The notes: a model not told the origin generated them from the sequence alone. Positions 2-5,149 are shown, counted from the stretch's first letter. The stretch: 7,298 nucleotides of DNA from a virus (IMGVR_UViG_2582580984_000004), one strand, 5' to 3'. Numbers and translations: made by a program.

Positions 2-340
2 GCGTCTCCAGTAGAGTGGCTGACGGATAATGGTTCATGCTACCGGGCTAATGAAACACGGCAGTTTGCCCGGATGTTGGGGCTTGAACCGAAGAACACG
101 GCGGTGCGGAGTCCGGAGAGTAACGGCATAGCAGAGAGCTTCGTGAAAACGATAAAGCGTGACTACATCAGTATCATGCCTAAACCAGACGGGTTAACGG
201 CAGCAAAGAACCTTGCAGAGGCGTTCGAGCATTATAACGAATGGCATCCGCATAGTGCACTGGGTTATCGCTCGCCACGGGAATATCTGCGGCAGCAGGC
301 CAGTAATGGGTTAAGTGATAACAGGTGTCTGGAAATATAG
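2..340 (+). CDS. insD: IS2 transposase OrfB (InsD), C-terminal part; 5' end lies outside the window
   Basis: The frame is open from position 2 ([35 protein letters not shown]...) with no stop until TAG at 338-340. The ORF track shows only 74-340 because it starts at the first Met. The DDE-integrase C-terminal signature HPHSALGY is present. Confidence 0.9.
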
Positions 341-2181: not shown

Positions 2182-2683
2182 AATTCCATCCAGCTTTTTG
2201 TTGGTATTGCTGTCGATACGCAAGTTTGAAAGCAATTGCTTTTTCTATAAGTTCGTCAGTTTCACGATCCACTACGGCAGGATCAGCAAAAAGCAGTCCG
2301 GACTCCACCACATCGCCATATTCTTTGTTTAACCCGGCGATCATGTACGTGATGCTTTTTCCGTCACTAATTTCACGATACAACCTGAAATCATTAATCC
2401 GGATAGCCTCCATAATTGCAGGCACTAGCGCCGTGAACTTTTCACGCTTATCCCTAGTGTCGATAGCCTTCCAGCGTTCGAATATCTTCACTCGATTAAC
2501 GCCAAGCGCTCGCTGATCAACCGCGCCACCTTCATCTGTGACACGCTGAACATCGATGTTCGGGCGCTCTTTCAAAGCCCAGAATGCTTCAGTGATTAAT
2601 ATCGTCGCCTGCTCCTGTGTCATTCCTGGTCGACATATCCAGGCATCCAGAGCCTCACGAGCCTGTTCAGGAGTGATTTTCAT
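2162..2683 (-). CDS. hypothetical protein, 173 aa, between the Cro-like gene and the replication initiator (the position occupied by YdaT/CII-type genes in related prophages)
   Basis: ORF-track entry with ATG at 2683-2681; overlaps the end of the upstream gene by 17 nt and the start of the initiator by 20 nt, a compact operon layout; no family recognised from sequence. Confidence 0.55.
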   Translation of the reverse strand: MKITPEQAREALDAWICRPGMTQEQATILITEAFWALKERPNIDVQRVTDEGGAVDQRALGVNRVKIFERWKAIDTRDKREKFTALVPAIMEAIRINDFRLYREISDGKSITYMIAGLNKEYGDVVESGLLFADPAVVDRETDELIEKAIAFKLAYRQQYQQKAGWNYEPSFC

Positions 2684-2894
2684 TGTTCAACCGCCCCGCC
2701 CGCTTCGTCTTACGATATTCGTCATAAACCTTGGGATCATACAGAAGCTCGCCGCCAGATGCCTCCTGTAGACGCATCGCGCGACCTTCAGGAACCAGCT
2801 CTTGCCATTGAGAAACAGCAGATGGGTCAACGCCAGCAGCTTTCGCTACTTTGGCTTTCGTACCGTAAAAATTAATTACGTCTGATTTAAACAT
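2667..2894 (-). CDS. dicC: Cro-type small DNA-binding regulator (DicC/YdaS-like), 75 aa
   Basis: ATG at 2894-2892 preceded by a strong SD (GGAGGT, ~4 nt spacing). Divergent from the DicA-like repressor across a ~77-bp operator region. The ORF-track start at 2921 is a TTG extension and lacks an SD. The symbol is assigned from position and size, not from a confirmed sequence match. Confidence 0.7.
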   Translation of the reverse strand: MFKSDVINFYGTKAKVAKAAGVDPSAVSQWQELVPEGRAMRLQEASGGELLYDPKVYDEYRKTKRAGRLNNENHS

Positions 2895-2971
2895 CGCACC
2901 TCCAATATTGAGTTTTCTCAATGCTAATCACTCAAGGAATCTCAAGTCAAGGGTTATTAAGATATCTAAAT
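2895..2971. promoter_or_regulatory. divergent control region between the dicC-like and dicA-like genes, with operator-like repeats
   Basis: Inverted-repeat operator ATTGAG-tttt-CTCAAT at 2907-2922; CTCAAG direct repeats at 2931-2936 and 2941-2946, plus TCAAGG at 2947-2952; candidate -35 TTGACT (minus strand, 2950-2945) for the leftward promoter. Confidence 0.55.
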
Positions 2972-3379
2972 ATGAACGAGAAAACTTTAGGTCAACGCAT
3001 TAGAGAAAGACGTAAGCAGGTAGGCTTAAGTCAAAACGGTTTAAGCAAAGCTGCTGGCGTATCTGGCTCATCAATTTCATTATGGGAAAGTGACCATACA
3101 GCCCCGCGCGGGCAAAATTTGCATCGCCTCGCCGAGGTATTGCAATGTTCACCAACCTGGATACTGTTTGGCGACGAGGACAAAACACCAGCTCCCCCTG
3201 TTTCACTCGATAGTGCCTTAGACTTATCGGAAGATGAGTTAGAGATGCTGCGTTTGTATCGCGCACTTCCTAAATCAGAGCAACAAGCACAACTCAGCGA
3301 ACTCCGCGCCCGCGTTGAGAATTTTAATCGCCTGTTCACCGAGCTATTAGAGGCTCGCAAACGCAACAAGCATCAATAA
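2972..3379 (+). CDS. dicA: DicA-like HTH (XRE-family) prophage repressor, 135 aa
   Basis: Translation MNEKTLGQRIRERRKQVGLSQNGLSKAAGVSGSSISLWESD... has a classical XRE helix-turn-helix. It sits immediately upstream of a ydfA-dicF-dicB-ydfD array and divergent from a Cro-like gene. The ORF-track start at 2921 would leave no intergenic space, so the ATG at 2972 is preferred; no obvious SD precedes it. Confidence 0.8.
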   Translation: MNEKTLGQRIRERRKQVGLSQNGLSKAAGVSGSSISLWESDHTAPRGQNLHRLAEVLQCSPTWILFGDEDKTPAPPVSLDSALDLSEDELEMLRLYRALPKSEQQAQLSELRARVENFNRLFTELLEARKRNKHQ

Positions 3380-3417
3380 TCATCCCTTCACAAAATTTTA
3401 AAGCCTTACATTTCAAT

Positions 3418-3442
3418 GTATTGGCTTTATCTTGCGCCAATA
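3418..3442 (+). terminator. possible weak intrinsic terminator or attenuator hairpin downstream of the dicA-like gene
   Basis: Perfect 8-bp stem GTATTGGC/GCCAATAC with a 9-nt loop, followed by ttgagttttctc (U-rich but interrupted); it abuts operator copy O2. Confidence 0.3.
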
Positions 3443-3443
3443 C

Positions 3444-3495
3444 TTGAGTTTTCTCATCAAAAAACCTTGACGAAAAATAATGAGAAAACTAAATT
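3444..3495 (+). promoter_or_regulatory. putative repressor-controlled promoter of the dicB-type operon, flanked by two operator copies
   Basis: -35 TTGACG at 3467-3472, 17-bp spacer, -10 TAAATT at 3490-3495. Operator copy TTGAGTTTTCTCAT at 3444-3457 and an inverted copy aaTGAGAAAACTaaat at 3479-3494, both matching the 2907-2922 operator. Confidence 0.5.
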
Positions 3496-3571
3496 ACTTC
3501 CATCAAGACACCGCACGGTGTTCTCAGCAAACAGTTCCGCTACCCCGGCGTTAAGGGGAAATGAGGTCAGC

Positions 3572-3724
3572 ATGGATACTATCGATCTTGGCAACAGCGA
3601 ATCTCTGGTATGTGGCGTGTTCCCCAACCAGGACGGTACGTTCACCGCGATGACATATACCAAAAGCAAAACGTTTAAAACCGAATCTGGCGCGCGTTGC
3701 TGGTTAGCCAGAAACACTGACTGA
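3572..3724 (+). CDS. ydfA: small protein, 50 aa, YdfA-like (first gene of the dicB-type operon)
   Basis: ATG at 3572 preceded by GAGG with ~5 nt spacing; size and position match ydfA of the Qin dicB operon. The ORF-track start at 3416 is an unsupported upstream extension. Confidence 0.6.
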   Translation: MDTIDLGNSESLVCGVFPNQDGTFTAMTYTKSKTFKTESGARCWLARNTD

Positions 3725-3735
3725 TGAGGCTGACG

Positions 3736-4101
3736 ATGGAATTTAAAGATTTACCGTCTGATGTACAGAAAACAGCAGCTCATACATTGCATTCTGTGCT
3801 GCGAGAAATCGGGAAAGATATTGCAAGCGAGCCAGCAAAAGATCTGGCCCGGAAAATCAAGACCGCTTTCGTTGAGCTTTATAATGTTGGCACTGACTCT
3901 GAAACTGTCGAGACCAAGACCGTAAGTTCACCAATATTCTCACTTGAGCCAGGCGTATTATCAGGTGAAATATGCACCGAGATTTCCAGCGAACTGCTTC
4001 CGGTAATACGAGAAGCAATTTGCCGTCGCGGTTTGGATGGAAGTTACGATCATGACGTCCTGCAAGTTCTCAGGACAATGGTGACTTCACTGGGGATTTG
4101 A
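3736..4101 (+). CDS. hypothetical protein, 121 aa (the position of ydfB/ydfC in the Qin operon)
   Basis: ATG at 3736 preceded by GAGG (3726-3729, 6 nt spacing); an alternative ATG at 3724 overlaps the upstream stop (TGATG). Acidic protein; no family recognised. Confidence 0.6.
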   Translation: MEFKDLPSDVQKTAAHTLHSVLREIGKDIASEPAKDLARKIKTAFVELYNVGTDSETVETKTVSSPIFSLEPGVLSGEICTEISSELLPVIREAICRRGLDGSYDHDVLQVLRTMVTSLGI

Positions 4102-4270
4102 TCCCTGCGTCCTCTAACCTTTTGATATAGCGGTCCTCCAAGAAGCGGTAAATTTTGTCGAAATCATCTTTCCCCTCTGGTTTATTCAGAGGATTACAGG
4201 ACCCGTAAGTAGCGGCATACATTTCAACCGTTTTATCAAAAATATAAGAGACAAATTCTTCTTTAGTCAT
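4070..4270 (-). CDS. hypothetical small protein, 66 aa, convergent with and overlapping the 3' end of the 3736-4101 gene
   Basis: ATG at 4270-4268 preceded by AAGAAGGAAAT (SD-like, ~8 nt spacing). Translation MTKEEFVSYIFDKTVEMYAATYGSCNPLNKPEGKDDFDKIYRFLEDRYIKRLEDAGIKSPVKSPLS has a globular-protein-like composition. The plus strand has no ORF across 4102-4270. Confidence 0.45.
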   Translation of the reverse strand: MTKEEFVSYIFDKTVEMYAATYGSCNPLNKPEGKDDFDKIYRFLEDRYIKRLEDAGIKSPVKSPLS

Positions 4271-4545
4271 ATAGATTTCCTTCTTGGTTATTCGGGATAA
4301 GAAGGATACCACCTCGCCTGACGTGGTTAAAAGCAGGCATACAACACGAAAGCGCACGGCGAAGTTCGTCTCACTGTACGGTGTCGTTAAATTTAATTCG
4401 ACCGTGCGCTTCCGGTTGTGGCAACCCGCGAAATGGCGCGGCGGTAAGTATGGCGGGGTTATTCCTTCCCCGTTGAGGACACCGAGTTGTCAGGTTGACC
4501 ATACGCTTAAGTGACAACCCCGCTGCAACGCCCTCTGTTATCAAT

Positions 4546-4603
4546 TTTCTGGTGACGTTTGGCGGTATCAGTTTTACTCCGTGACTGCTCTGCCGCCCTT
4601 TTT
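4546..4603 (+). ncRNA. dicF: DicF small regulatory RNA (antisense regulator of ftsZ), about 53 nt plus U-tail
   Basis: Sequence tttctggtgacgtttggcggtatcagttttactccgtgactgctctgccgccc-ttttt matches DicF as I recall it; it lies just upstream of dicB as in Qin and ends in a GC-stem plus U-run terminator. Ends are approximate. Confidence 0.75.
4561..4603 (+). terminator. DicF 3' intrinsic terminator
   Basis: GGCGG (4561-4565) pairs with CCGCC (4593-4597), with an inner CAGT/ACTG pairing, followed by cTTTTT (4598-4603). Confidence 0.65.
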
Positions 4604-4772
4604 AAAGTGAATTTTGTGATGCGGTGAATGCGGCTGAGCGCACGCGGAACAGTTAAAACCAAAAACAGTGTTATGGGTGGATTCTCTGTATCCGGCGTTA
4701 ATTGTTAACTGGTTAACGTCACCTGGAGGCACCAGGCACCGCATCACAAAATTCATTGTTGAGGACGCGATA

Positions 4773-4961
4773 ATGGAAACGTTATTACCAAACGTTAATA
4801 CGTCTGAAGGTTGTTTTGAAATTGGTGTCACTATCAGTAACCCTGTATTTACTGAAGATGCCATTAACAAGAGAAAACACGAACGGAAGCTATTAAATAA
4901 AATATGCATTCTTTCAATGTTGGCCCGTTTACGTCCGATACAAAAAGGATGCTGGCAATGA
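4773..4961 (+). CDS. dicB: DicB cell-division inhibitor (MinC-dependent), 62 aa
   Basis: ATG at 4773 preceded by GAGGA (4761-4765, 7 nt spacing). Translation METLLPNVNTSEGCFEIGVTISNPVFTEDAINKRKHERKLLNKICILSMLARLRPIQKGCWQ matches DicB in length and, as far as I recall, in sequence. The ORF-track start at 4668 is an upstream extension. Confidence 0.8.
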   Translation: METLLPNVNTSEGCFEIGVTISNPVFTEDAINKRKHERKLLNKICILSMLARLRPIQKGCWQ

Positions 4962-5149
4962 ATACAGCATTTGCACTTGTTCTGACAGTTTTTCTTGTTT
5001 CCGGAGAGCCAGTTGATATTGCAGTCAGTGTTCACAGGACAATGCAGGAGTGTGTGACTGCAGCAACCGAACAGAAAATTCCCGGTAACTGTTACCCGGT
5101 CGATAAAGTTATTCACCAGGATAATAACGAAATCCCGGCAGGTCTTTAA
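4958..5149 (+). CDS. ydfD: YdfD-like small membrane protein, 63 aa
   Basis: ATG at 4958-4960 overlaps the dicB stop (ATGA, translational coupling); hydrophobic N-terminus MNTAFALVLTVFLVSG; size and position match ydfD of Qin. Confidence 0.7.
   Translation: MNTAFALVLTVFLVSGEPVDIAVSVHRTMQECVTAATEQKIPGNCYPVDKVIHQDNNEIPAGL

What the first reader, a model, noticed from the sequence alone, without database searches (positions are those of the whole stretch)
2907..3494. One 14-16 bp operator motif occurs three times: once in the dicA/dicC divergent region and twice around the putative dicB-operon promoter
ATTGAGTTTTCTCAAT (2907-2922) recurs as TTGAGTTTTCTCAT (3444-3457) and, inverted, as aaTGAGAAAACTaaat (3479-3494). 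The latter two flank a -35-like TTGACG (3467-3472) and overlap the -10-like TAAATT (3490-3495). This is the layout expected if the DicA-like repressor (and/or the Cro-like protein) controls both the leftward replication operon and the rightward dicB/DicF operon from shared operators 0.5 kb apart, possibly by looping.
Basis: partly seen in the sequence, partly recalled or inferred. Interest (0 to 1): 0.5.

Follow-up and report, generated by a model that had tools for sequence, protein, structure and literature searches.

The report
Repressor operators of a DicA-type prophage switch
The repeated 16-bp palindrome is almost certainly the binding site of this prophage's DicA-like repressor (probably also its Cro-like partner), placed over the two early promoters as in the well-studied E. 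coli K-12 Qin dicA/dicC/dicB locus, so it is an ordinary new-specificity version of a known switch.

Summary
ATTGAGTTTTCTCAAT (2907-2922) recurs at 3444-3457 and, inverted, at 3479-3494. With at most 1 mismatch there are 3 matches against 0.01 expected.

The window is an E. coli Qin-site prophage. Its immunity region is 100% identical to that of the temperate phage mEp460. The flanking proteins pass the NCBIfam DicA and DicC models.

Copy 1 overlaps the -10/+1 of the leftward dicC-like promoter. Copies 2 and 3 flank the -35 and cover the -10 of the rightward ydfA-DicF-dicB promoter. In K-12 Qin the experimentally bound DicA operator Oc (a different sequence) and its two dicBp look-alikes occupy the same positions.

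The cores stay fixed in Buttiauxella homologues (74-76% protein identity) while the flanks diverge. Other DicA variants carry their own palindrome at the same three places.

The motif fits the 18-bp frame of the P22 c2 operator, and P22 c2 is the closest solved homologue.

Looping is untested, and no binding experiment exists for this allele.

Verdict: new member of a known kind, low to moderate interest.

The parts
2907..2922 (.). O_C: the strongest operator, ATTGAG-TTTT-CTCAAT, a perfect palindrome. It overlaps the last 2 nt of the -10 and the predicted start site of the leftward dicC-like promoter. It is the positional equivalent of K-12 Oc.
   Evidence: Its place matches K-12 Oc. The core TTGAGTTTTCTCAA is invariant in 14 E. 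coli/IMG-VR haplotypes. TGAGTTTTCTCAAT is invariant out to Buttiauxella.
2956..2971 (.). O_A: candidate weaker operator ATTAAG-ATAT-CTAAAT with the same 6-4-6 geometry. It abuts the dicA-like ATG and overlaps a -10-like TAAGAT (2958-2963). It is the positional equivalent of K-12 Oa and may be an OR3-like site.
   Evidence: (family D1). It lies in a 20-nt block that is invariant in all same-type loci, including Buttiauxella. Its role is inferred. K-12 Oa did not bind DicA in vivo (PMC3441716).
3443..3458 (.). O_B1: operator CTTGAG-TTTT-CTCATC, ending 9 bp upstream of the -35 of the rightward promoter.
   Evidence: The core TGAGTTTTCTCA is invariant in window/L016/L017/L003/L005/L006.
3479..3494 (.). 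O_B2: operator AATGAG-AAAA-CTAAAT in inverted orientation. It covers the spacer and 5 of 6 bases of the -10 of the rightward promoter.
   Evidence: The core GAGAAAACTAA is invariant in the same six loci.
3467..3495 (+). P_B, the dicBp / lambda PL analogue: TTGACG-17-TAAATT. It drives ydfA-like, DicF, dicB and ydfD.
   Evidence: K-12 has the same layout, TTGACC between two Oc-like sites.
2921..2950 (-). P_C, the dicCp / lambda PR analogue: TTGACT-18-TAGCAT on the - strand. It drives the dicC-like, ydaT/CII-like and O-like replication genes.
   Evidence: The -35 (AGTCAA on the + strand) is conserved in all immunity types.
2972..3379 (+). The dicA-like repressor gene (135 aa). It has an HTH_3 N-terminal domain homologous to the P22 c2 N-terminal domain. 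The recognition helix reads GSSISLWES against HVSVSQWER in K-12 DicA.
2667..2894 (-). The dicC/cro-like gene (75 aa, P22_Cro family). Its N-terminal DNA-binding part differs from K-12 DicC; its C-terminal part is nearly identical.
3572..4961 (+). The controlled rightward operon: ydfA-like DUF1391 (3572-3724), an ORF at 3736-4101, DicF sRNA (4547-4598) and dicB (4773-4961). ydfD-like follows at 4958-5149.
3399..3429 (+). Terminator-like hairpin followed by UAUCUU, lying between the dicA-like stop codon and O_B1. It probably ends the dicA-like transcript.
   Evidence: -11.3 kcal/mol, z = -3.26. The CTTTCAATGT.TTG block is conserved in L005/L006.

Best explanation
The repeats are the operators of a heteroimmune allele of the DicA/DicC prophage switch. 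This is the immunity type of temperate phage mEp460.

Inferred mechanism. A dimer of the 135-aa DicA-like repressor binds each site through its P22-c2-like helix-turn-helix domain. The two ATTGAG half-sites would be contacted directly (positions 2-7 and 12-17 of an 18-bp frame). The central TTTT would be read indirectly as a narrow-groove A-tract.

At the rightward promoter, O_B1 lies just upstream of the -35 and O_B2 covers the spacer and -10. Occupancy would therefore exclude RNA polymerase and silence the ydfA-DicF-dicB operon.

At the divergent region, O_C spans the end of the -10 and the start site of the leftward promoter. Occupancy would therefore shut off the cro-like / CII-like / replication operon. 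By analogy with K-12, it would also stimulate dicA-like transcription.

The Cro-like protein, whose DNA-binding part belongs to the same exchanged module, probably uses the same sites. The weaker O_A, which overlaps the dicA-like -10 and ATG, is a candidate for shutting off repressor synthesis.

Shown here: the sequences, their positions, their conservation, their co-variation with the repressor type, and family membership. Inferred: binding, direction of regulation, and the roles of O_A and of the Cro-like protein.
For: 1. Statistics and exclusivity: 3 matches against 0.01 expected. In a 45-kb phage genome with the same immunity region these are the only matches.

2. Promoter overlap: the only two sigma-70-like promoters found in 2800-3650 are the two that carry the sites.

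3. Positional homology with K-12 Qin. Oc (TTGTTAGTCATAACTAACAA) lies 15 bp from the dicC ATG and overlaps the dicC -10. Two Oc-like sites flank the TTGACC of dicBp. DicA binding to Oc, loss of binding after one base change, repression of dicC and activation of dicA are published (PMC3441716). DicA represses dicBp 22-fold (PMC10448788).

4. Conservation. In Buttiauxella loci (74-76% protein identity) the cores are unchanged while the flanks diverge. Variable columns in the cores against outside them: 0/14 vs 14/63; 5/26 vs 37/94; with Buttiauxella added, 7/26 vs 67/94, p = 6e-5.

5. Co-variation. Eight or more DicA variants each carry their own palindrome at -66/-68 from the repressor ATG. In the seven loci where the automated pick recovered both sites, two copies lie 34-36 bp apart around the -35 of the downstream promoter; in K-12 the pair is seen by eye at 35 bp. 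O_C of the window type matches window-type downstream regions at 18-22 of 24 positions. It matches the K-12-like types L009, L010, L012 and L013 at 13-15, and L011 at 14-18.

6. Family membership: the DicA and DicC NCBIfam models are passed. The N-terminal 72 residues align without gaps to the P22 c2 N-terminal domain, E = 8e-16. P22 repressor contacts positions 2-7 and 12-17, does not contact the central 4 bp, and prefers an A-tract centre (PMC4267663).

7. The recognition helix differs between types exactly where the operators differ.
Against: No binding or reporter data exist for this allele; everything is comparative.

Within E. coli alone the depletion of polymorphism in the cores is only marginal (p about 0.04 for each region), and a few rare haplotypes carry changes inside O_B1 or O_B2.

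The comparative data cannot say whether the DicA-like protein, the Cro-like protein, or both occupy each site.

In K-12 the Oa and Om look-alikes did not bind DicA in vivo (PMC3441716), so O_A may not be a DicA-like site.

The dicA-like promoter was not detected by the consensus scan.
Confidence: 0.85

Rival explanations
1. The sites are used mainly by the Cro-like (DicC-like) protein, and the DicA-like repressor recognises something else.
For: The N-terminal DNA-binding part of the Cro-like protein is part of the same exchanged module and also tracks the operator type. L007 keeps a window-type Cro helix, the O_A block and one TTGAG half-site even though its DicA-like helix is different.
Against: In K-12 it is DicA that was shown to bind Oc and to repress dicBp (PMC3441716; PMC10448788). 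No other repeated or palindromic element is shared between the two promoter regions. The motif fits the operator frame of the P22 c2 fold, to which the DicA-like N-terminal domain belongs. In lambdoid switches both proteins share the operators, so this is more a refinement than an alternative.
Confidence: 0.08
2. Repression depends on a DNA loop: a DicA-like tetramer or octamer bridges O_C/O_A and O_B1/O_B2 across about 0.54 kb, as lambda CI bridges OR and OL.
For: There are two operator pairs 536-572 bp apart. Precedents exist in lambda CI and in the octameric PaaR2, which occupies the same genomic position in CP-933P (PMC8630535). The DicA C-terminal half is conserved across immunity types and could be an oligomerisation module.
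Against: Nothing here tests it. O_C-to-O_B distances vary from 497 to 536 bp, with no conserved helical phase across types. DicA has no lambda/P22-type C-terminal domain; only the HTH domain is detected. Each promoter is already occluded by its local sites.
Confidence: 0.15
3. The repeat is a chance or duplication remnant, or a host-factor site, with no role in immunity.
For: An exact 13-mer repeated somewhere in 7.3 kb of AT-rich DNA is not by itself extraordinary. The loose 3-mismatch test is not significant.
Against: The palindromic form, three copies at promoter-defined positions, conservation against diverged flanks, type-specific co-variation, and absence from the rest of a 45-kb phage genome all argue against it.
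Confidence: 0.02

Closest known systems
E. coli K-12 Qin prophage dicA-dicC-dicBp immunity locus (Bejar et al. 1986, 1988; Yun et al. 2012, PMC3441716; Ragunathan et al. 2023, PMC10448788)
   Same: Same chromosomal prophage site next to rspB. Same gene order: dicC, then dicA, then ydfA-DicF-dicB-ydfD. The proteins pass the DicA and DicC models. One strong palindrome overlaps the dicC -10/+1, a weaker look-alike sits at the dicA ATG, and two sites flank the -35 of dicBp. The 135-aa repressor has no protease domain, and a rem antirepressor gene lies in the same prophage.
   Different: The operator sequence differs: half-site ATTGAG here against GTTAGT in K-12. The recognition helix differs: GSSISLWES against HVSVSQWER. 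DicA identity is only 55-57%. The exchanged module runs from the 5' part of dicC to the -10 of dicBp. This allele has had no experimental work. It is also carried by a functional phage, mEp460 (PMC10448788).
Phage P22 immC: c2 repressor and Cro with OR and OL operators
   Same: The N-terminal domain is homologous over 72 residues without gaps. The symmetric operator fits the same 18-bp frame, with 6 contacted bases in each half and a 4-bp A/T centre (PMC4267663). T3, T4, A6 and G7 of the half-site are shared with what I recall as the P22 consensus ATTTAAG (from memory, not checked here). O_A (ATTAAG-ATAT-CTAAAT) is close to that consensus.
   Different: There is no S24/LexA-type C-terminal domain, so no RecA-mediated cleavage is expected. 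There are two sites per region, plus at most one weak site, rather than three. The half-site differs at positions 2 and 5.
CP-933P PaaR2 / YdaS / YdaT switch of E. coli O157:H7 (PMC8630535)
   Same: It has the same lambdoid position, a divergent Cro-like gene followed by a YdaT/CII-like gene, operators shared between a PR/PRM region and a PL-like promoter, and a leaderless repressor gene. Here too there is no Shine-Dalgarno sequence, and a -10-like hexamer lies 8 nt before the ATG.
   Different: PaaR2 is a different, octameric repressor followed by a toxin-antitoxin pair. Its operators are four 18-bp repeats with consensus GTTTAGTAA.
Lambda CI/Cro with OR1-3, OL1-3 and the OL-OR loop
   Same: The logic is the same: a bistable pair of repressors acts on a divergent PR/PRM region and on a second early promoter.
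   Different: There is no sequence relationship beyond the HTH domain, there are fewer operators, the separation is 0.54 kb rather than 2.3 kb, and looping and cooperativity are unknown.

Membership tests
DicA repressor family (NCBIfam NF007257) | Full-length match to the DicA profile above the curated cut-off | tested here: met
   239.4 bits against a cut-off of 101, covering residues 1-135 of 135. Pfam HTH_3, E = 2e-15.
DicA repressor family (NCBIfam NF007257) | Short repressor (about 135 aa) with no LexA/S24 autocleavage domain | tested here: met
   Only HTH families are detected. The protein aligns end to end with K-12 DicA.
DicC / P22-Cro family | Divergently transcribed gene of about 75 aa matching the DicC profile | tested here: met
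   NF007282 scores 165.3 bits against a cut-off of 130. Pfam P22_Cro, E = 3e-16.
Qin-type dicA/dicC/dicB immunity locus | Gene order dicC, dicA, then ydfA ... DicF RNA ... dicB on the dicA strand | tested here: met
   DicF, 76.7 bits; DicB, E = 4e-37.
Qin-type dicA/dicC/dicB immunity locus | Inverted-repeat operator overlapping the dicC -10/+1, with related sites at the dicB promoter | tested here: met
   The positions are the same as in K-12, but the sequence is type-specific.
Qin-type dicA/dicC/dicB immunity locus | DicA binds the operator, represses dicC and dicB, and activates dicA | not testable with these tools
   Published only for the K-12 allele (PMC3441716, PMC10448788).
Classical lambdoid immunity region (lambda/P22 type) | Three tandem operators at each of OR and OL | tested here: not met
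   There are two sites of full geometry at the divergent region (O_C, O_A) and two at P_B. The middle candidate, 2931-2946, has 4 of 6 palindromic pairs and is not conserved.
Classical lambdoid immunity region (lambda/P22 type) | RecA-cleavable repressor with a C-terminal S24 domain | tested here: not met
   No S24 domain is found. A rem antirepressor gene is present in the prophage instead.
P22 c2-type operator recognition | 18-bp symmetric site with contacted positions 2-7 and 12-17 and a non-contacted A/T centre | tested here: met
   tATTGAG-TTTT-CTCAATg fits this frame. The frame itself comes from PMC4267663. Actual contacts are inferred from homology.
Lambda-type long-range repression loop | Repressor tetramer or octamer bridging the two operator regions | not testable with these tools
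   Only the distances could be computed. There is no conserved phase.

The most novel reading that the evidence does not exclude
DicA-type switches may run on a minimal 2+2 operator set rather than the lambda 3+3. In this reading, one high-affinity palindrome (O_C) both represses the cro-like promoter and activates a leaderless dicA-like transcript. The weak O_A site at the ATG is the preferred target of the Cro-like protein. The conserved C-terminal half of DicA tetramerises to loop O_C/O_A onto O_B1/O_B2, 0.54 kb away. The natural allele series would then give a simple recognition code in the P22 c2 fold: residue 32 Gly/Asp against His pairs with base 2 A against G, and residue 37 Leu against Gln pairs with bases 5-7 GAG against AGT/AGA. 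L007 looks like a natural hybrid, with His32 + Leu37 pairing with GTTGAG.
Probability: 0.15. Interest if true: 0.45.

Novelty: new member of a known kind. Interest (0 to 1): 0.25.

Why it matters
[quoted passage not shown] This particular immunity region is common: 795 of 5426 complete E. coli genomes hold at least 80% of the 2600-3800 stretch. It is also the immunity region of a live gut phage, mEp460.

Knowing its operator sequence defines which prophages are homo-immune and which are hetero-immune. It predicts what a Rem-type antirepressor must release. It also adds a natural, orthogonal repressor/operator pair to a family whose closest structural model, P22 c2, is well understood.

The series of co-varying alleles collected here is a ready data set for studying specificity. 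None of this changes the accepted picture of how the locus works.

Tried and rejected
1. Motif scan with up to 3 mismatches: 6 matches against 3.17 expected, uninformative.

2. Fifth copy ACGAGAAAACTTTA at 2977-2990, inside dicA-like codons 2-6. It is identical in the E. coli loci but changed to ATGAAATGACGc/tTA in both Buttiauxella loci. It also does not fit TTNAG-N4-CTNA. Rejected as an operator.

3. Middle site 2931-2946 (CTCAAGGAATCTCAAG), considered as an Om analogue. Only 4 of 6 palindromic pairs form, and both CTCAA half-sites are lost in Buttiauxella. Not supported.

4. A third P_B site at 3513-3528 (GTGTTCTCAGCAAA resembles part of O_B1, family D5). This segment is identical in K-12-type loci with a different repressor, so it is not type-specific. 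Rejected.

5. A plain best-14-mer identity matrix between upstream and downstream regions. It is clear for the window type (13-14 of 14) but weak for types with variable operator centres, including K-12 where binding is proven. I replaced it with scoring of the 12 contacted positions in the P22 frame.

6. Helical-phase test for looping: inconclusive.

7. Literature search for the motif string: no paper in the library prints it. The library lacks most subscription journals, so this is weak evidence of absence.

8. Rfam: only DicF is found, and no RNA family covers the operator regions.

9. The IMG/VR scan returned only relatives with 96-100% protein identity. That is useful for polymorphism but not for divergence.

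Full report
**What is in the sequence**

- ATTGAGTTTTCTCAAT at 2907-2922 is a perfect ATTGAG-N4-CTCAAT palindrome.
- TTGAGTTTTCTCAT lies at 3444-3457.
- The inverted AATGAGAAAACTAAAT lies at 3479-3494.

The 13-bp core with at most one mismatch occurs 3 times in the window against 0.01 expected, and none of 200 shuffles reach 3. A looser 3-mismatch scan is uninformative.

An unbiased repeat search of 2850-3600 returns these copies as its top inverted pairs, I1 and I2. It also returns a related 17-mer, TATTAAGATATCTAAAT, at 2955-2971.

The degenerate pattern TTNAG-N4-CTNA hits only four places in 7.3 kb: the three copies and 2957-2970. Counting both strands that is 6 matches against 0.9 expected, and 0 of 200 shuffles reach 6.

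**Context**

The window is 100% identical to an E. coli chromosome (FDAARGOS_497). There it is a prophage lying between hokD/rem and an integrase next to rspB, which is the Qin site. The features in window coordinates are:

| Feature | Coordinates | Strand |
|---|---|---|
| cro/dicC-like | 2667-2894 | - |
| dicA-like | 2972-3379 | + |
| ydfA-like | 3572-3724 | + |
| DicF RNA (Rfam, 76.7 bits) | 4547-4598 | + |
| dicB | 4773-4961 | + |
| ydfD-like | from 4958 | + |
| exonuclease gene | from 5242 | + |

Leftward of dicC-like lie a YdaT/CII-like gene, a gene annotated as O-like replication initiator in phage HannyBb, and a DUF977 gene.

The two regulators pass the NCBIfam DicA model (239 bits, cut-off 101) and DicC model (165 bits, cut-off 130).

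The 854-bp immunity region is 100% identical in the temperate phage mEp460_ev081 and 99.5% identical in phage HannyBb. In HannyBb's whole 45-kb genome the motif with at most one mismatch occurs only at the three immunity sites.

**Relation to promoters**

The consensus scan finds just two sigma-70-like promoters in 2800-3650.
- On the + strand: TTGACG-17-TAAATT at 3467-3495.
- On the - strand: TTGACT-18-TAGCAT at 2950-2921.

O_B1 (3443-3458) ends 9 bp upstream of the rightward -35. O_B2 (3479-3494) covers the spacer and five of the six -10 bases. O_C (2907-2922) overlaps the last two bases of the leftward -10 and the expected start site.

The fourth site, O_A (2956-2971), abuts the dicA-like ATG, which has no Shine-Dalgarno sequence. 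It contains a -10-like TAAGAT eight bases before the ATG. That suggests a leaderless transcript, as described for lambda cI and paaR2 (PMC8630535). This last point is inference.

**Comparison with the known system**

In a K-12-type Qin locus (L002), the operator Oc, TTGTTAGTCATAACTAACAA, lies 15 bp from the dicC ATG. Two Oc-like sites flank TTGACC of dicBp, and the proximal one runs into the -10.

Yun et al. showed several things for Oc (PMC3441716):
- DicA binds Oc, by in vivo titration, an rpsL operator assay and a gel shift.
- A single base change abolishes binding.
- Oc overlaps the dicC -10.
- DicA at Oc represses dicC and activates dicA.
- The look-alikes Om and Oa did not bind DicA.

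Ragunathan et al. confirmed 22-fold repression of dicBp by DicA. They describe the locus as a CI/Cro-like bistable switch with operators in both intergenic regions, citing Bejar et al. 1988. They also note that mEp460 carries dicA, dicC, dicB, dicF and rem homologues (PMC10448788).

The window therefore has the same architecture at the same positions, but with a different operator sequence.

**Conservation within the type**

Two Buttiauxella loci (L005 and L006, 76% and 74% protein identity) and two diverged E. coli loci (L016, L017) were compared. They keep TGAGTTTTCTCAAT at O_C, TGAGTTTTCTCA at O_B1 and GAGAAAACTAA at O_B2 unchanged, while the sequence immediately around them is largely replaced.

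The counts of variable alignment columns are as follows.

| Set | Region | In operator cores | Outside cores | Fisher p |
|---|---|---|---|---|
| IMG/VR + E. coli haplotypes | upstream | 0 of 14 | 14 of 63 | 0.04 |
| IMG/VR + E. coli haplotypes | downstream | 5 of 26 | 37 of 94 | 0.04 |
| with Buttiauxella added | downstream | 7 of 26 | 67 of 94 | 6e-5 |

The 20-nt block containing O_A and the ATG is invariant in all of them. The look-alike inside codons 2-6 (2977-2990) is not conserved.

**Co-variation across types**

A scan of one genome per species gave 13 loci with DicA relatives of 44-100% identity.

In the P22-type 18-bp frame, the best palindrome upstream of the repressor gene sits at -66 or -68 from the ATG in five of the eleven loci scanned. 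It is the second- or third-ranked candidate at that position in two more (L006 and L007). Its half-site depends on the repressor variant:

| Loci | Half-site | Recognition helix |
|---|---|---|
| window, L005 | ATTGAG | S(G/D)SSISLWES |
| L007 | GTTGAG | SHATISLWES |
| K-12 type | GTTAGT | SHVSVSQWER |
| L011-L013 | GTTAGA-like | (S/A)HVTISQWE |

The half-sites are and the helices.

In seven of these loci the automated pick finds two further copies 34-36 bp apart around the -35 of the promoter downstream of the repressor gene; K-12's pair, 35 bp apart, was located by eye, and the pick failed for L011.

I scored the 12 contacted positions of each locus's O_C against the two best sites in each downstream region.
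- The window type matches its own type at 18-22 of 24.
- It matches the K-12-like types L009, L010, L012 and L013 at 13-15, and L011 at 14-18.
- K-12-type O_C (L009, L010) matches the K-12-like cluster (L009-L013) at 16-19, and window-type regions at 12-15.

**Structural frame**

Residues 1-72 align without gaps to the P22 c2 N-terminal domain (1adr, 2r1j; E = 8e-16). P22 repressor binds an 18-bp symmetric site as a dimer. It contacts positions 2-7 and 12-17, leaves the central four base pairs uncontacted, and binds best when that centre is an A-tract (PMC4267663).

The window motif is exactly positions 2-17 of such a site: six bases, TTTT, six bases. This supports dimer binding by the HTH domain with indirect readout of the centre. 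That is an inference from homology, not a measurement.

The DicA alignment shows that the types differ mainly at helix positions 32-34 and 37, while the C-terminal half is conserved. The Cro-like proteins likewise differ in their N-terminal DNA-binding part. The exchanged immunity module therefore runs from the 5' part of dicC-like to the -10 of P_B.

**Mechanism proposed**

The DicA-like dimers at O_B1 and O_B2 occlude P_B and keep ydfA-DicF-dicB silent. At O_C they block P_C, silencing the cro-like, CII-like and replication genes, and probably stimulate dicA-like transcription as in K-12.

The Cro-like protein probably competes for the same sites. O_A, over the dicA-like -10 and ATG, is a candidate OR3-like site.

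Release is expected through the Rem antirepressor encoded in the same prophage (PMC10448788), not through RecA cleavage, because no S24 domain is present.

Shown here: sequences, positions, statistics, conservation, co-variation and family membership. Inferred: binding, the sign of regulation, the role of O_A, and the leaderless transcript.

**Looping**

The two operator pairs are 536-572 bp apart. Across types the O_C-to-O_B1 distance ranges from 497 to 536 bp, with no common helical phase. The K-12 frame used in that call is one base off, so the correct values are 511 and 546 bp. Nothing else bears on looping, and it remains a possibility with precedents in lambda CI and PaaR2.

**Novelty**

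The kind of system and its logic have been known since 1986-1988 and were re-examined in 2012 and 2023. What is added here:
- the operator sequence of this widespread allele, which no paper in the searchable library prints;
- the fourth site, O_A;
- comparative evidence that DicA-type loci use a 2+2 layout (two strong sites plus at most a weak middle site at the divergent region) rather than three operators per side;
- a small natural series linking helix residues to half-site bases.

This makes it a new member of a known kind, of low to moderate interest.

Noticed in passing
window 2956-2971: A fourth operator-like palindrome, ATTAAG-ATAT-CTAAAT, lies directly before the dicA-like ATG. It sits in a 20-nt block that is invariant in E. 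coli and Buttiauxella and nearly so in Citrobacter L007, whose main operators differ. It resembles what I recall as the P22 operator consensus, and it overlaps a -10-like TAAGAT with no Shine-Dalgarno sequence, which suggests a leaderless dicA-like mRNA.
   Followed up: partly
window 3399-3429: A terminator-like hairpin (-11.3 kcal/mol, z = -3.26) followed by UAUCUU lies between the dicA-like stop codon and O_B1. Its core is conserved in Buttiauxella. L014 has a clearer GC-rich version at the same place.
   Followed up: partly
window 3500-3545: The leader of the rightward transcript, CCATCAAGACACCGCACGGTGTTCTCAGCAAACAGTTCCGCTACCCC, contains a short hairpin. It is conserved across different immunity types, including K-12. 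It is therefore not a type-specific operator; it may be a nut-like, processing or translational element.
   Followed up: no
window 2977-2990: A further look-alike, ACGAGAAAACTTTA, lies inside dicA-like codons 2-6. It is identical in the E. coli loci but not conserved in Buttiauxella, so it is probably coincidental.
   Followed up: yes
L018 5255-5713 (phage HannyBb) = window 2921-3379: The HannyBb record annotates the repressor as 152 aa, starting at the ATG at window 2921 inside O_C. RefSeq, the full-length NCBIfam DicA profile (1-135 of 135) and all homologues support the 135-aa start at 2972. The phage annotation probably has the start codon wrong.
   Followed up: partly
L003, L004, L008: Metagenome-assembled genomes labelled Bacillota, Veillonella parvula and Collinsella carry E. 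coli-type DicA loci. L003 and L004 encode a protein 100% identical to the window's; L008 encodes a K-12-type DicA. They lie on short contigs and are most likely mis-binned Enterobacteriaceae prophage DNA.
   Followed up: no
window 74-337 (+): This is a C-terminal fragment of an IS transposase (Pfam rve_3, E = 1.5e-19) at the left end of the window. RefSeq annotates a 340-aa hypothetical protein on the opposite strand there.
   Followed up: no
L007 (Citrobacter braakii) 1433-1450 and 1943-1996: This locus looks like a natural hybrid. Its repressor helix, SHATISLWES, combines His32 (as in K-12-like types, whose half-sites start with G) with Leu37 (as in the window type, whose half-sites end in GAG). 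Its operator half-site is GTTGAG. This hints at a simple residue-to-base code.
   Followed up: partly
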